Program-made: the position numbers and the translations under genes | The notes under the pieces: generated by a model | Told to the model about the DNA's origin: nothing | Databases searched by the model: none | The model's input: only the letters and a program-made list of their open reading frames with translations | NCBI GenBank assembly: GCA_040882575.1 | Contig: JBBEBA010000053.1 | Span: forward strand, 25,534 to 89,533 | Reading direction: 5' to 3' | DNA: 64,000 nt | Origin: Gemmatimonadota bacterium | Lineage (GTDB): Bacteria > Gemmatimonadota > Gemmatimonadetes > Longimicrobiales > RSA9 | Shown here: positions 13,562 to 15,804 of the stretch, piece by piece | Numbering within the stretch: position 1 is the first letter of the stretch | Layout: the number at the start of each line of letters is the position of its first letter

Positions 13562-14044
13562 ATGAGCTCCACACAATGGGCAAACATCGGCGACGACGCT
13601 GGCGCCCTGCATGCGCTCGTCGCACGCGTGCTCGAACAGGTGCCGCTCGACCTCATCGACTACCTCTGGATCTTTCCTTCGCGCAAAATCGCCATCGGCG
13701 AGAGCATCGTCGTCGTCATTGGCGCATTTGACGACGATGAGCTCCGTCGCCGCGTGCTCACCGCCCACTTCACGGTCGCTCGCAACAGAAAGGGCGCCGC
13801 ACAGGTCAACGTCCGCTTCGACGAGCACGGCTCGGCTCCCGCCGCCGCTGTGCCCCGCATCGTGAGCGGTGTGCTGCGCAGGATGGGCGAAGACGCCGAC
13901 GCGGAGCCCCGCGAGGAGTCCATCGGAGGAGATCGCGAGCGATGGAACGCGGTGATCCTGGCGCTGGGCGGCCCGGCGGGCGCCGCAGCGGGCGATGGAG
14001 CGGCCGATGGAGCGGCCGATGGGGCGGGCGGTGGGCACGTGTGA
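13562..14044 (+). CDS. Hypothetical protein
   Basis: 160 aa from the ATG at 13562, within ORF 12902..14044: MSSTQWANIGDDAGALHALVARVLEQVPLDLIDYLWIFPSRKIAIGESIVVVIGAFDDDELRRR.... The C-terminal GDGAADGAADGAGGG comes from a 12-nt tandem repeat. I recognise no family. Confidence 0.5.
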   Translation: MSSTQWANIGDDAGALHALVARVLEQVPLDLIDYLWIFPSRKIAIGESIVVVIGAFDDDELRRRVLTAHFTVARNRKGAAQVNVRFDEHGSAPAAAVPRIVSGVLRRMGEDADAEPREESIGGDRERWNAVILALGGPAGAAAGDGAADGAADGAGGGHV

Positions 14045-14075
14045 GGGTGGGCTTGTTCAGGCGGTGCTCGCGGGC

Positions 14076-14097
14076 TATCAATAATCATTGTTGATTG
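14076..14097 (+). promoter_or_regulatory. Fur-box-like imperfect palindrome upstream of fur
   Basis: TATCAATAATCATTGTTGATTG. The core ATCAATAAT-C-ATTGTTGAT is a 19-bp imperfect palindrome containing AATAATCATT, as in the classical GATAATGATAATCATTATC Fur box. It ends ~22 nt before the fur ATG. Confidence 0.55.
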
Positions 14098-14118
14098 TGA
14101 CCCACTGGAGGCAGGCAC

Positions 14119-14598
14119 ATGAGCTTTGTACATCTGTTCCGCCGTTACCTGAGGGAGCAGGGGCTGTCGGTGACGCAGCAGCGGGAGGCGGTCGCCGAGG
14201 TGGTGTTCACGTCATCGCAGCACCTGTCGGTGGAGGAAATCGAGCAGCAGCTGCGGCAGGGAGGGGAGCGCATCGGGAAGGCGACGGTGTACCGGACGCT
14301 GGAGATGCTGGTAAAGAGCGGGCTGGTGCAGGAGCACGACTTCGGCGAGGGGTTCAAGCGGTACGAGCACCTGTTCGGTCAGAAGCCGATGCGGGAGCAT
14401 CTGATCTGCACGGAATGCGGCAAGGTAGCGGACATTCACAGTGCAGACCTGGTGCGGGTGCAGGAGGACGCTGCGCGGAAGCAGGGGTTCCTGCCGTCGC
14501 GGTACCGTCTGCAGATATACGGGCTCTGCGCCGGCTGCCAGGCCGCTGGTGCGGAGCTGAGGTGGGAAGGGCTATCGTGTCCGATCGAGAGCATCTAG
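14119..14598 (+). CDS. fur: Fur-family transcriptional regulator
   Basis: 159 aa: QQREAVAEVVFTSSQHLSVEEI...KATVYRTLEMLVKSGLV...HLICTECGKV...GLCAGC. This is a winged helix plus two CxxC pairs. Confidence 0.9.
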   Translation: MSFVHLFRRYLREQGLSVTQQREAVAEVVFTSSQHLSVEEIEQQLRQGGERIGKATVYRTLEMLVKSGLVQEHDFGEGFKRYEHLFGQKPMREHLICTECGKVADIHSADLVRVQEDAARKQGFLPSRYRLQIYGLCAGCQAAGAELRWEGLSCPIESI

Positions 14599-14602
14599 AC
14601 GG

Positions 14603-14693
14603 GGGGCGAAATACTGGGGCGAAATACTGGGGCGAGATACTGAGCCGAAATACCGGGGCGAAATACCGGGGCGAAATACCGGGGCGACACACC
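14603..14693. repeat. Tandem array, 13-nt unit GGGGCGAAATACY x7
   Basis: Read directly: ggggcgaaatact x2, ggggcgagatact, gagccgaaatacc, ggggcgaaatacc x2, ggggcgacacacc. It starts 5 nt after the fur stop. Confidence 0.9.
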
Positions 14694-14719
14694 GGGGAGG
14701 GGAAAGGGAGCCGTTTTGG

Positions 14720-14864
14720 CCGTTCACCCGCTTCACTCGCCTGCTTCAATCGCCCGGTTCATTCGCCTGCTTCACCAGCCCGGTTCACTCGCCTGCATCA
14801 TTCGCCCCCTTGTTTCGCCCCTTTATTCGCTCCTTTATTCGCCCCTTTATTCGCCCCTTCACTG
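14720..14864. repeat. Tandem array of ~11 units of 12-13 nt (YTTCAYTCGCCYG ... TTTATTCGCCCC), inverted relative to 14603-14693
   Basis: Read directly. The last units, tttattcgcccc, are the reverse complement of ggggcgaataaa, close to the left-arm unit ggggcgaaata. The array ends 14 nt before the agmatinase ATG. Confidence 0.85.
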
Positions 14865-14877
14865 TCGTACGGAGACC

Positions 14878-15804
14878 ATGTCAATACCGATGTCGCTGAA
14901 GGCGGCGGCCTGGGAGCTGCCGCACAATTTCCTCGGACTGGATGAAGCCGGCGGCGCGTTCGACCGTGCGGGAGCGGTGATCCTGCCGGTGCCGTACGAA
15001 GCGACGACGAGCTTCGGCGGCGGCACGGGCGGCGGGCCGCGGGCGATCATCGAGGCGTCGCGCTACATCGAGCTGTACGATCAGGAGCTGGATTCGGAGC
15101 CGTCCGGGATCGGCATTGCGACGCTGCCGTCGCTGGCGCTGACGGGCGCGGGTCCGCAGCAGGCGCTGACCGAGCTGCGGACGGCGTATGACGCATTGCT
15201 CGAGGCGGCGCCGGACAAGTTCATCGTGCTGCTTGGAGGAGAGCACTCGGTGTCGAGCGCGCCGATTCTCGCGTGGGCGGACCGGCTCGATCGAGAAGGG
15301 CGGCGGCTGAGTGTGCTGCAGGTGGACGCGCACACGGATCTGCGGCCCGAGTACGAGGGCTCTCCGTACTCGCACGCATCGGTGATGGCACGCGTGCAGG
15401 ATCGCGTCGAGATCGCTGCGGTCGGGATCCGCGCGCTGACGAGCGAAGAGATGCGGCTGGTGCGGCGGTCGGAGAACATCCACCTGTTCCTGGCGGATGA
15501 CATTCACGCGGGTGACGCATGGATCGACGACGTGCTGTCGCGGCTGGGCGAGGATGTGTACATCACGTTCGATGTCGATGGATTCGATCCTTCGCTGGTG
15601 CCGTCCACGGGCACGCCCGAGCCGGGCGGGCTGCAGTGGTATCCGGTGCTGAAACTGCTGCGGCGCGTGTTCACGGAGCGAAAGGTCCATGCAGTCGACG
15701 TCGTCGAGCTCGCGCCGATCCCGGGCCTGTCGGCGCCTGACTTCCTGGTGGCGAAGCTCATCTACAAGATGATCGGCTACCGCTTCCTGCAGCCGCGGGG
15801 CTGA
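14878..15804 (+). CDS. speB: Agmatinase / arginase-family ureohydrolase
   Basis: Starts at the ATG at 14878 within ORF 14716..15804. Mn-binding motifs are LGGEHSVS, QVDAHTDLR, TFDVDGFDP and VDVVEL. Confidence 0.8.
   Translation: MSIPMSLKAAAWELPHNFLGLDEAGGAFDRAGAVILPVPYEATTSFGGGTGGGPRAIIEASRYIELYDQELDSEPSGIGIATLPSLALTGAGPQQALTELRTAYDALLEAAPDKFIVLLGGEHSVSSAPILAWADRLDREGRRLSVLQVDAHTDLRPEYEGSPYSHASVMARVQDRVEIAAVGIRALTSEEMRLVRRSENIHLFLADDIHAGDAWIDDVLSRLGEDVYITFDVDGFDPSLVPSTGTPEPGGLQWYPVLKLLRRVFTERKVHAVDVVELAPIPGLSAPDFLVAKLIYKMIGYRFLQPRG

What the first reader, a model, noticed from the sequence alone, without database searches (positions are those of the whole stretch)
14603..14864. ~260-bp intergenic structure built from inverted arrays of 12-13-nt repeats between fur and the agmatinase gene
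Seven tandem GGGGCGAAATACY units (14603-14693) face about eleven units of the opposite sense (14720-14864). Those drift from CTTCACTCGCCTG-type to TTTATTCGCCCC, which is the reverse complement of GGGGCGAATAAA. The arrangement fills essentially the whole fur-speB spacer, from 5 nt after the fur stop to 14 nt before the next ATG. It could fold into a very long imperfect hairpin. The architecture parallels the heptamer family (direct arrays facing inverted arrays), and the middle units share GCTTCAC with it. The function is unknown. It could be a terminator or insulator, a structured RNA, a protein-binding array or a satellite-like selfish element. The ORF-track ORFs crossing it (14088..14945, 14716..15804 N-terminus) are translations of the repeats.
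Basis: seen in the sequence. Interest (0 to 1): 0.6.

Follow-up and report, generated by a model that had tools for sequence, protein, structure and literature searches.

The report
Tandem-repeat hairpin between fur and agmatinase
The gap between the fur and agmatinase genes of this soil-type Gemmatimonadota bacterium is filled by two mirror-image arrays of 12-13-base repeats that can fold into one long hairpin. It is a large-unit example of a known but unexplained kind of bacterial repeat that sits just after stop codons, and it is young: related species lack it.

Summary
Window 14603-14697 holds 7.3 copies of GGGGCGAAATACY. Window 14722-14864 holds about 11 units of opposite sense. Together they fill the 279-nt fur-speB spacer and fold into a bulged hairpin (RNA -123.6 kcal/mol, z -3.6).

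The array is not unique in kind. The genome (a Longimicrobiales MAG, 67.7% GC) has 165 intergenic short-unit arrays. About 8 of them belong to the same GGGCGA-core 11-14-mer family, including a 390-bp paralogue with the same architecture.

Arrays start a median of 4.5 nt after stop codons. They are G-rich on the sense strand 58 times against 12 (p = 2e-8), and they are rare between divergent genes. This is the positional rule published for the Xanthomonas/Nostoc G-rich heptamer repeats.

This copy is species-specific. Six same-genus species lack it, and most of them have instead a conserved N-terminal extension of the agmatinase. Four more distant relatives carry unrelated inverted arrays in the same spacer.

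My reading: a periodic palindrome born by replication slippage which, once transcribed, acts as an intercistronic RNA hairpin. Verdict: a new variant of a known kind, of moderate interest.

The parts
14119..14598 (+). fur gene (159 aa, PF01475), stop TAG at 14596-14598
   Evidence: ORF list. Pfam FUR on the identical protein in L108. fur-speB adjacency in 72 of 80 relatives.
14598..14602 (+). 5' half of the base helix (GACGG). It pairs with 14862-14866 (CUGUC) and begins at the last base of the fur stop codon.
   Evidence: Pair list of the minimum-free-energy structure.
14603..14697 (+). Left arm: 7.3 tandem 13-nt units GGGGCGAAATACY, G-rich on the sense strand
   Evidence: TRF score 134, sequence. 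Units 1, 2, 3, 5 and 6 form 7-11-bp helices with the outer right arm. Unit 4 (GAGCCGAAATACC) is looped out.
14698..14721 (+). Centre of the palindrome. Non-repetitive and G-tract-rich: GGGGAGGGGAAAGGG spans 14694-14708.
   Evidence: Sequence. It has no expected pairing with the left arm. Assembly L109 ends here.
14722..14799 (+). Inner right arm: six C-rich 13-nt units (TTCACTCGCCTGC / TTCAATCGCCCGG) arranged as a 26-nt higher-order repeat
   Evidence: TRF periods 13, 26 and 39. Only about 17 expected base pairs with the left arm.
14800..14864 (+). Outer right arm: five 12-nt units (ATTCGCCCCCTTG, TTTCGCCCC, then TTTATTCGCYCC x3) plus a partial unit TTCAC. Each unit is UUCGCCCC followed by a U-rich linker.
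   Evidence: TRF period 12, 4.9 copies. About 47 expected base pairs with the left arm.
14862..14866 (+). 3' half of the base helix (CTGTC). It ends 4 nt before the Shine-Dalgarno sequence.
14871..14875 (+). Shine-Dalgarno-like GGAGA of speB, left unpaired by the hairpin
   Evidence: Sequence, structure.
14878..15804 (+). speB (agmatinase / arginase family, 308 aa). It lacks the MPNRR...APGRG N-terminal extension seen in many relatives.
   Evidence: ORF. PF00491 on the identical gene in L108. 200 relatives found, 80 kept. Extension in 18 of 18 relatives that carry the motif.

Best explanation
The element is a 'periodic palindrome': two inverted tandem arrays that grew in place by replication slippage of 12-, 13- and 26-nt blocks in the spacer of an ancestrally tight fur-speB operon.

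It is a large-unit (12-13 nt) member of the genome-wide population of short-unit arrays. Those arrays sit directly after stop codons with the G-rich strand in the sense direction. This is the same kind as the intergenic G-rich heptamer repeats of Xanthomonas and Nostoc and the long simple sequence repeats (LSSR) of other bacteria.

The element is young and species-specific.

Once transcribed from the fur promoter, the G-rich arm and the outer C-rich arm should fold co-transcriptionally into five 7-11-bp GGGGCGAA/UUCGCCCC helices on a base helix. That base helix runs from the fur stop codon to 4 nt before the speB ribosome-binding site.

The most likely effect is generic, not sequence-specific. 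The hairpin would pause or partly terminate RNA polymerase and block 3' exonucleases. That would stabilise the fur part of the message and lower, but not abolish, read-through into speB.

Shown: anatomy, predicted fold, class membership, positional rules, absence in relatives. Inferred: slippage origin, transcription through the element, and the hairpin's effect.
For: Anatomy and fold.

Signs of slippage:
- Three sub-arrays with their own periods (13, 26, 12).
- Identical neighbouring units.

Class membership in this genome:
- 272 arrays of period 5-20 (at least 3 copies), 165 of them intergenic.
- A few unit families dominate: AGCGGGGG at 26 loci, AAACGTG at 23.
- 72 arrays start within -8 to +25 nt of a stop codon, at a median of 4.5 nt. 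Of these, 58 are G-rich and 12 C-rich in the sense direction, p = 2e-8.
- Arrays occur in 20 of 237 convergent spacers, 49 of 894 tandem spacers and only 8 of 242 divergent spacers, although divergent spacers are the longest.
- Rehm et al. [quoted passage not shown]

Same unit family elsewhere:
- C38:106330-106720 has 5 x GGGGGCGAATACT starting 7 nt after a stop, a 110-nt centre, then 14 x TCGCCCGAAGTAY(C).
- Further copies lie at C28, C55, C60, C61 and C1.

Youth of this copy:
- Absent from the same spacer in six same-genus species.
- No exact two-unit match in 185,579 species genomes or in JGI metagenome contigs.

Recurrent births:
- Relatives L014, L035, L052 and L072 carry unrelated-unit inverted arrays in the same fur-speB spacer. 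They fold with z -3.0 to -6.8, and all have the G/purine-rich arm first.
- Spacers without arrays give z near 0.

Operon context:
- fur and speB are adjacent in 72 of 80 relatives, with gaps as short as 17-30 nt.
- No sigma-70 consensus promoter lies inside the element.
Against: - No expression data.
- There is no U-tract terminator by the consensus scan. A strong terminator here would silence speB, so the 'partial' effect is an assumption.
- Arm complementarity is modest. The z-score is -3.6, weaker than in relatives' arrays. The two arms have different periods (13 against 12) and different linkers.
- The inner 78 nt of the right arm pair poorly.
- In the other genome that shares the unit family (G021), most arrays are single-armed. 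Hairpin formation is therefore not essential to the family.
- The same units, including the variant GCAGGCGAGT, recur at several loci, and one unit family is shared by two genera but not by intermediate species. Purely local slippage does not predict either pattern.
- My gene calls are home-made (GC3-based, 76% coverage). Stop positions are reliable; start positions are not.
Confidence: 0.55

Rival explanations
1. Sequence-specific recognition array. The conserved word GGGCGA-RR-TAC, repeated every 12-14 nt, is the binding site of a DNA- or RNA-binding factor. The arrays would then be functional multi-site platforms (insulator, nucleoid or RNA-chaperone binding) and not merely hairpin arms.
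For: - The 6-8-nt core is conserved at about 8 loci in this genome while the linkers vary.
- The same 13-14-mer (GGGCGAGGTACTGC / ...TTC) forms arrays at 10 or more loci in G021, a different genus, mostly single-armed.
- The reversed-pattern control is near 0.
- The variant unit GCAGGCGAGT recurs in four arrays.
Against: - The genome's commoner array families (CGTGAAA, GGGGAGCG, ACACGC) have unrelated units yet obey the same positional and polarity rules. One factor per family would be needed.
- The unit family is absent from the same-genus species checked.
- No candidate protein was identified.
Confidence: 0.1
2. G-quadruplex / i-motif element, as proposed for the Xanthomonas and Nostoc heptamers. 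The GGGG tracts of the left arm (sense strand) and of the right arm (antisense strand) would form G4 structures in DNA or RNA that modulate transcription or mRNA stability.
For: - Every unit carries a GGGG tract.
- GGGG-N9-GGGG-A-GGGG-AAA-GGG lies at the apex, 14681-14708.
- The positional rule is identical to that of the G4-forming repeats of Rehm et al. 2015.
Against: - The loops between G tracts in the arrays are 8-9 nt, beyond the canonical 1-7 nt, so three long loops predict weak G4s (inference from established G4 rules).
- The complementary arm competes by duplex formation.
- The most abundant heptamer families of this genome (CGTGAAA, GCGTGAA) have no G tracts yet follow the same rules.
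Confidence: 0.07
3. Masked Rho-loading pad. The C-rich right arm (about 140 nt, YC dimers every 12-13 nt) is a near-ideal rut site that the G-rich left arm hides by pairing. The weakly paired inner 78 nt (six 13-nt units, about one Rho hexamer footprint) would load Rho and attenuate transcription into speB, depending on translation or folding.
For: - The right-arm units are C > G (TTCACTCGCCTGC has 6 C and 2 G) and the inner arm pairs weakly.
- Rho binds regularly spaced YC dimers with 9-13-nt linkers in C>G regions (Nadiras et al. 2018, PMC6144790).
- The genome encodes Rho.
- A G-first polarity would be expected if exposed C-rich RNA after stop codons is selected against.
Against: - Any C-rich 80-nt stretch meets the YC-spacing criterion, so the period match is weak evidence.
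- Heptamer and octamer families do not have this period.
- Gemmatimonadota Rho specificity is unknown.
- No expression data.
Confidence: 0.07
4. Translational-coupling clamp. The hairpin exists to bring the fur stop codon next to the speB ribosome-binding site, so that coupling of an ancestrally tight operon survives a 279-nt spacer.
For: - The base helix runs from the last base of the fur TAG to 4 nt before the free GGAGA.
- In relatives the two cistrons are 6-30 nt apart.
- In L035 the two arrays sit at the extreme edges of the spacer, around an ordinary terminator.
Against: - The arrays themselves caused the long spacer, so this explains tolerance and not origin.
- Single-armed arrays of the same family exist.
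- Arrays between convergent genes have no downstream start to couple to.
Confidence: 0.06
5. Inserted copy of a dispersed mobile element (MITE/REP-like) and not an in-situ expansion.
For: - The unit family is dispersed.
- Four arms share the same outer-to-inner order of unit types: GGGGCGAA-type units, then GCAGGCGAG-type units.
- The ancestral spacer and the speB N-terminal extension have vanished.
Against: - BLAST of the element against the genome finds only array-to-array matches and no shared non-repeat ends or flanks.
- No Y1/RAYT transposase is present in the genome.
- The centres of the C53 and C38 elements are unrelated.
- No target-site duplication is evident.
Confidence: 0.06

Closest known systems
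Intergenic G-rich heptamer repeats of Xanthomonas (GGGAATC) and Nostoc (GGGGAYT), Rehm et al. 2015, PLoS One, PMC4692102
   Same: - Tandem G-tract-containing units in non-coding DNA.
- The G-rich strand is on the coding strand within 50 bp after stop codons, or on the non-coding strand just upstream of ORFs.
- Under-represented between divergent genes.
- Inverted pairs able to form stem-loops occur.
- Strong length and sequence turnover between close relatives.
- Function unknown.
   Different: - The unit here is 12-13 nt, not 7.
- The loops between G tracts are 8-9 nt, so G4 formation is doubtful.
- There are 7 + 11 units forming a 260-nt composite palindrome. The published repeats show a preference for four units.
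- The host phylum is Gemmatimonadota.
- The same genome holds G-tract-free families that follow the same rules.
Long simple sequence repeats (LSSR) of prokaryotes, Mrazek, Guo and Shah 2007, PNAS (as summarised in PMC4679880)
   Same: - Tandem short units longer than chance would give.
- Mostly intergenic when the unit length is not a multiple of three.
- Phylogenetically patchy.
- Polymerase slippage is the proposed origin.
   Different: - That survey covered units of 1-11 nt only, so 12-14-nt units fall outside it.
- It did not describe paired inverted arrays or the stop-codon anchoring.
Heptamer-array hairpins of Gemmatimonadota noted earlier in this scan (AI notes, unpublished), including three in this window (26035, 43443, 44731)
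   Same: - Same genome and phylum.
- Same architecture: direct array facing inverted array, starting a few nt after a stop codon.
- Same G/purine-first polarity and fast turnover.
   Different: - The unit is nearly twice as long.
- The two arms have different periods.
- The total length is about 3 times greater.
- The element lies inside a conserved operon, not at a convergent gene end.
REP/BIME extragenic palindromes of enterobacteria and pseudomonads (RAYT-associated)
   Same: - Extragenic hairpin-forming repeats after stop codons, often in inverted pairs.
- Known to stabilise upstream mRNA and to attenuate read-through. This is the effect proposed here (established knowledge).
   Different: - REPs are single 20-40-nt imperfect palindromes, not tandem arrays of short units.
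- They are spread by RAYT transposases, and none is encoded in this genome.
TAACTGA direct heptamer repeats of marine Beggiatoaceae, MacGregor 2015, PMC4679880
   Same: - Abundant intergenic tandem short units with a genome-specific unit.
- Patchy distribution across lineages.
- A suspected post-transcriptional role.
   Different: - Those repeats lie mainly upstream of start codons.
- They are direct repeats with almost no inverted partners.
- They are AT-rich heptamers.

Membership tests
Rehm-type intergenic G-rich SSR arrays / LSSR | Head-to-tail copies of a short unit, far more than chance | tested here: met
   TRF: 7.3 copies of a 13-mer (score 134) and 4.9 copies of a 12-mer. None of 100 shuffles reached the observed count.
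Rehm-type intergenic G-rich SSR arrays / LSSR | Unit length 6-9 nt (Rehm) or 1-11 nt (LSSR survey) | tested here: not met
   The units are 12, 13 and 26 nt. The published ranges are given.
Rehm-type intergenic G-rich SSR arrays / LSSR | G-rich strand on the coding strand within 50 bp after the stop, or on the non-coding strand just upstream of an ORF | tested here: met
   This locus: the G-rich arm starts 4 nt after the fur stop, and the C-rich arm ends 13 nt before the speB ATG. Genome-wide: 58 against 12, p = 2e-8.
Rehm-type intergenic G-rich SSR arrays / LSSR | Over-represented in non-coding DNA and under-represented between divergent ORFs | tested here: met
   165 of 272 arrays are intergenic. 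Arrays occur in 8 of 242 divergent spacers, 20 of 237 convergent spacers and 49 of 894 tandem spacers. Gene calls are my own approximation.
Rehm-type intergenic G-rich SSR arrays / LSSR | Unit number and sequence vary between close relatives | tested here: inconclusive
   The array is absent from six same-genus species. The only near-identical assemblies (L108, L109) show the same 7 units. No strain-level series is available and read data were closed.
Rehm-type intergenic G-rich SSR arrays / LSSR | G-quadruplex formation by four or more consecutive units | not testable with these tools
   This needs CD spectroscopy or melting. From the sequence the loops are 8-9 nt, which is unfavourable.
REP/BIME (RAYT-mobilised extragenic palindromes) | A cognate Y1 (RAYT) transposase in the genome | tested here: not met
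   PF01797 has 0 matches in the own genome. The control genomes do match. The assembly is a 104-contig MAG, so absence is not absolute.
REP/BIME (RAYT-mobilised extragenic palindromes) | A single 20-40-nt imperfect palindrome as the repeated module | tested here: not met
   The module here is a 12-13-nt non-palindromic unit in tandem.
Intrinsic (Rho-independent) terminator | Compact GC-rich stem-loop directly followed by a U tract | tested here: not met
   The consensus scan finds none in 13900-15100. The outer right units do carry UUUAUU after each UUCGCCCC stem half, so a weak, serial terminator-like configuration cannot be excluded.
CRISPR array | 24-48-nt repeats separated by unique spacers of similar length | tested here: not met
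   The units are contiguous, with no spacers.
Any curated RNA family (Rfam 15) | Match to a covariance model | tested here: not met
   No match at E <= 1 in 13900-15100.
Rho-dependent terminator (rut site) | C>G, weakly structured RNA of about 60-80 nt with YC dimers spaced 9-13 nt apart | tested here: inconclusive
   The inner right arm (14722-14799) is C-rich, has a 13-nt period and pairs weakly. The criterion comes from PMC6144790, and it is met by almost any C-rich stretch. No functional data.
MITE-like mobile element | Conserved termini or flanks and target-site duplication shared by copies | tested here: not met
   BLAST of the element finds only array-to-array hits. The centres of the two full copies are unrelated.

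The most novel reading that the evidence does not exclude
The arrays may not be passive slippage debris. They could be the footprint of an unrecognised active process that writes genome-specific unit arrays at gene boundaries. Candidates are a templated or enzyme-driven addition, or hairpin-templated strand switching that copies one arm onto the other.

Observations that plain slippage does not predict:
- A handful of unit families dominate each genome, one at 26 loci.
- Arrays begin a median of 4.5 nt after stop codons, with 58:12 strand polarity.
- One 13-14-mer family is shared by two genera but not by the species between them.
- The same variant units appear in the same outer-to-inner order in four arms.
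- One orthologous spacer acquired inverted arrays at least five separate times with unrelated units.
Probability: 0.08. Interest if true: 0.85.

Novelty: new variant of a known kind. Interest (0 to 1): 0.36.

Why it matters
Short-unit tandem arrays behind stop codons have been described in Xanthomonas, cyanobacteria and Beggiatoaceae. The papers read here (PMC4692102, PMC4679880) left their function open.

This locus extends the class in four ways:
- To 12-14-nt units, beyond the 1-11-nt range of the LSSR survey.
- To composite palindromes of about 260-390 bp.
- To the phylum Gemmatimonadota.
- It shows the published positional polarity rule holding for G-tract and G-tract-free units alike. 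That speaks against G-quadruplexes as the common cause.

Comparison across species suggests a recurrent process. A conserved fur-speB operon junction has been invaded independently in at least five lineages. In this genome the invasion coincides with loss of a conserved N-terminal extension of the agmatinase.

Practically, 29 of 208 contig ends of this MAG lie inside such arrays. They are a real cause of assembly breaks and spurious ORF calls in these genomes.

Tried and rejected
- Rfam scans of the locus and of ten relatives' loci: no family.
- Consensus promoter/terminator scan: nothing.
- RAYT transposase search: none, so REP/BIME membership is rejected.
- Exact two-unit pattern in 185,579 species genomes and in JGI metagenome contigs: no hit, so no strain series for unit-number variation.
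No RNA-seq, no read-level polymorphism.
- Exact-protein look-up of Fur gave only two identical assemblies, hence no variation.
- BLAST of the element against its own genome: no flank homology, so a mobile element with defined ends is rejected.
- A permissive regex for GSCGA-period arrays mostly returned chance hits in coding DNA and was not used for counts.
- A Fur-box reading of the AAATAC / AATAAA linkers was considered and dropped. The hexamers are separated by GC-rich cores, not contiguous as in Fur boxes.
- CRISPR, iteron and curvature (A-tract phasing) readings do not fit a contiguous 12-13-nt period.
- I considered that the units are amplified halves of the ancestral fur terminator. Same-genus L011 has GATAAAGGGGGGGCGG...CCCCTTCCCTTTATT after fur, and other relatives have GCCCCTTCGTTTCG. 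The resemblance is suggestive but too short to test.
- Three viral contigs carry a two-unit match. They were not examined.

Full report
**What is there**

The window is contig C53:25534-89533 of a 3.75-Mb, 104-contig, 67.7% GC genome. Its closest relatives are Longimicrobiales / Gemmatimonadota MAGs.

- fur (14119-14598) and an agmatinase-family gene, speB (14878-15804), lie on the + strand, 279 nt apart.
- The spacer consists of a left arm of 7.3 tandem 13-mers GGGGCGAAATACY (14603-14697), a 24-nt G-tract-rich centre, and a right arm of opposite sense (14722-14864).
- The right arm has six 13-mers arranged as a 26-nt higher-order repeat (TTCACTCGCCTGC / TTCAATCGCCCGG), then five 12-mers ending in TTTATTCGCCCC.
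- The unit count is far beyond chance.
- Two other assemblies carry the identical sequence. One of them breaks exactly at the palindrome centre.

**Structure**

As RNA the element folds at -123.6 kcal/mol (z -3.6). As DNA it folds at -58.2 kcal/mol (z -2.5). The pair list shows the following:
- A base helix runs from the last base of the fur TAG (14598-14602) to 14862-14866, 4 nt before the free GGAGA of speB.
- Five helices of 7-11 bp (GGGGCGAA / UUCGCCCC) join left units 1, 2, 3, 5 and 6 to the outer 12-mers.
- The mutated left unit 4 is looped out.
- The inner 78 nt of the right arm pair only weakly.

So the hairpin is real but much less perfect than 'inverted arrays' suggests. The two arms have different periods and linkers, which indicates separate recent expansions.

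No Rfam family, sigma-70 consensus promoter or canonical terminator is present.

**It is one of many**

TRF on the whole genome finds 272 arrays with periods of 5-20 nt and at least 3 copies. Of these, 165 lie outside my (approximate, GC3-based) gene calls. Periods 7 and 8 dominate, and 27 arrays have periods of 12-14.

A few unit families account for most loci: AGCGGGGG at 26, AAACGTG at 23, AAGCGTG at 14. Twenty-nine of 208 contig ends lie inside arrays.

The GGGCGA-core 11-14-mer family to which this element belongs occurs at about 8 loci. Among them:
- C38:106330-106720 has the same architecture: stop codon, 7 nt, 5 x GGGGGCGAATACT, a 110-nt centre, 14 x TCGCCCGAAGTAY(C).
- C28, C55 and C60 have single G-rich arms starting 0-10 nt after a stop codon.
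- Four arms share the same order of unit types from the gene-proximal end inward (GGGGCGAA-type, then GCAGGCGAG-type).
- There is no homology outside the repeats and no RAYT transposase.

**Positional rules**

Seventy-two arrays begin within -8 to +25 nt of a stop codon, at a median of 4.5 nt. Fifty-eight are G-rich on the sense strand and 12 are C-rich (p = 2e-8).

Arrays occur in 8.4% of convergent spacers, 5.5% of tandem spacers and 3.3% of divergent spacers, although divergent spacers are the longest. Ordinary hairpins in convergent spacers show a weaker G-first bias (35:16).

These are the rules that Rehm et al. 2015 reported for GGGAATC / GGGGAYT repeats. They also noted inverted pairs, rapid length change between close species, transcription of most repeats, and no identified function. 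The LSSR survey of Mrazek et al. 2007 covered only 1-11-nt units. I found no paper on such arrays in Gemmatimonadota.

**Comparative evidence**

- fur-speB adjacency holds in 72 of 80 relatives.
- In 18 relatives the spacer carries a conserved stretch that reads, always in frame with speB and without stops, as MPN(R/Q)R(D/N)..(A/T)(P/S)GRG. This is an N-terminal extension that leaves only 6-30 nt between the cistrons. The ancestral state is therefore a tight operon.
- Six same-genus species have no array here. Neither the exact unit pair nor, beyond a handful of genomes, the family pattern is found elsewhere.
- Four more distant relatives (L014, L035, L052, L072) have inverted arrays of unrelated 7-8-nt units in this same spacer. 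All have the G/purine-containing arm first. They fold with z -3.0 to -6.8, against about 0 for array-free spacers.
- In L035 the arrays sit at the two extreme edges of the spacer, around an ordinary U-tract terminator.
- GGGCGA-period arrays are patchy within the family (G000, G090, G012, G021, G036, G066, G111) and nearly absent from the two other families of the order.
- G021 (another genus) has the near-identical 14-mer GGGCGAGGTACTGC at 10 or more loci, mostly single-armed.

**Interpretation**

I read the element as a young, species-specific periodic palindrome that grew by slippage of one- and two-unit blocks. It is a member of a known but unexplained repeat class, with unusually long units.

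Because it lies inside what was a tight operon, and no promoter is evident downstream of it, it is probably transcribed with fur. If so, the hairpin must form. Its most likely consequence is the generic one known for REP/BIME-type hairpins: pausing or partial termination, plus a block to 3' exonucleases. That would uncouple fur from speB expression. Transcription through the element and this effect are inferences; nothing here tests expression.

Rival readings:
- **G-quadruplex:** disfavoured by the 8-9-nt loops and by the G-tract-free families that obey the same rules.
- **Masked Rho pad:** the period match (12-13 nt against (YC)N9-13) is intriguing but non-specific.
- **Sequence-specific binding array:** not excluded, given the conserved GGGCGARRTAC word across loci and genera.
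- **Mobile element with defined ends:** not supported.

**Verdict**

The element is a new variant of a known kind. The interesting residue is at the level of the class: dominant unit families, stop-codon anchoring, strand polarity, and repeated independent births at one spacer. Simple slippage does not fully explain these features.

Noticed in passing
L001, L005, L007, L011, L018, L026, L027, L031, L033, L039, L042, L060, L066, L067, L069, L074, L076, L078 (the 60-90 nt before the speB match at about 3001): A conserved N-terminal extension of the agmatinase, MPN(R/Q)R(D/N)..(A/T)(P/S)GRG(P/A)(L/D). It is in frame with speB and free of stops in 18 of 18 relatives that carry the motif, with synonymous third-position changes. 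It overlaps a GC hairpin (GGGGCTCC..GGRGCCCC) and is followed by a conserved internal SD + ATG. It could be a longer isoform or a leader. It is absent in this window, where the arrays fill the spacer. No Rfam match.
   Followed up: partly
G000 C38:106330-106720 (own genome, outside the window): A 390-bp paralogue of the element: stop codon, 7 nt, 5 x GGGGGCGAATACT, a 110-nt unrelated centre, 14 x TCGCCCGAAGTAY(C), then 75 nt to the next gene.
   Followed up: partly
L014, L035, L052, L072 (fur-speB spacers of relatives): Independent inverted arrays with unrelated units in the same orthologous spacer: TGAGAGTG/CACACTCC, TAGGCAC/GTGCCTA, AATTTTG/CAAAATT and GCAGAGA/TCTCTGC. In L035 the fur stop codon TAG is part of the first unit, and the arrays bracket a normal U-tract terminator.
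   Followed up: partly
L110-L121 (G021 = CAVSJO01, MFD01721.bin.1.274): A long-contig Gemmatimonadales MAG of another genus carries 14-mer arrays GGGCGAGGTACTGC at 10 or more loci. Most are single-armed. They are G-rich in the sense direction after stops or C-rich upstream of genes. In L110 the array fills the whole gap from the stop codon to the next gene's ribosome-binding site.
   Followed up: partly
window 14040-14100: Upstream of fur there is a promoter-like TTGTTC-17 nt-TATCAA, then an AT-rich near-palindrome AATAATCATTGTTGATTGT that resembles a Fur box. This suggests fur autoregulation. Seen by eye only; the consensus scan did not list it.
   Followed up: no
window 13976-14034: A 12-nt tandem repeat GCGGGCGATGGA x4.9 lies inside the 3' end of the upstream 160-aa gene (13562-14044, no Pfam). 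It encodes a (G/A)DGAA-type low-complexity C-terminus.
   Followed up: no
G000, all contigs; L109: 29 of 208 contig ends lie inside short-unit tandem arrays. An independent MAG assembly of this locus ends exactly at the palindrome centre. The arrays fragment assemblies, so their number is underestimated.
   Followed up: yes
G000 C53:18866-18920 (before the window, which begins at C53:25534) and C70:5764-5835: Convergent gene pairs whose whole spacer is an octamer-array palindrome (TGA-GCGGGGGAGCGGGGGAGCGGGG...CCGCTCCTCCGCTCCTCCCGC-TCA). The stop codons of both genes are part of the outermost units. TRF missed these at the thresholds used.
   Followed up: no
L011 / L102 (G090, same genus): Here a short ORF on the opposite strand is inserted between fur and speB. 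After the fur stop lies GATAAAGGGGGGGCGGCC-TGTG-GGCGGCCCCTTCCCTTTATT. Its AATAAAGGGG / CCCCTTTATT ends resemble the outer 12-mer unit of the window's right arm.
   Followed up: no
G000 C43:18260-18481 and C33:18244-18462: Two separate ORFs (446 and 414 aa) match the Rho RNA-binding domain above the Pfam cut-off, so the genome may encode two Rho paralogues.
   Followed up: no
L135, L136, L137 (IMG/VR contigs): Three viral contigs contain a two-unit match to GGGCGARRTAC-N2-4-GGGCGARRTAC. They were not examined, and the matches may be chance or coding.
   Followed up: no
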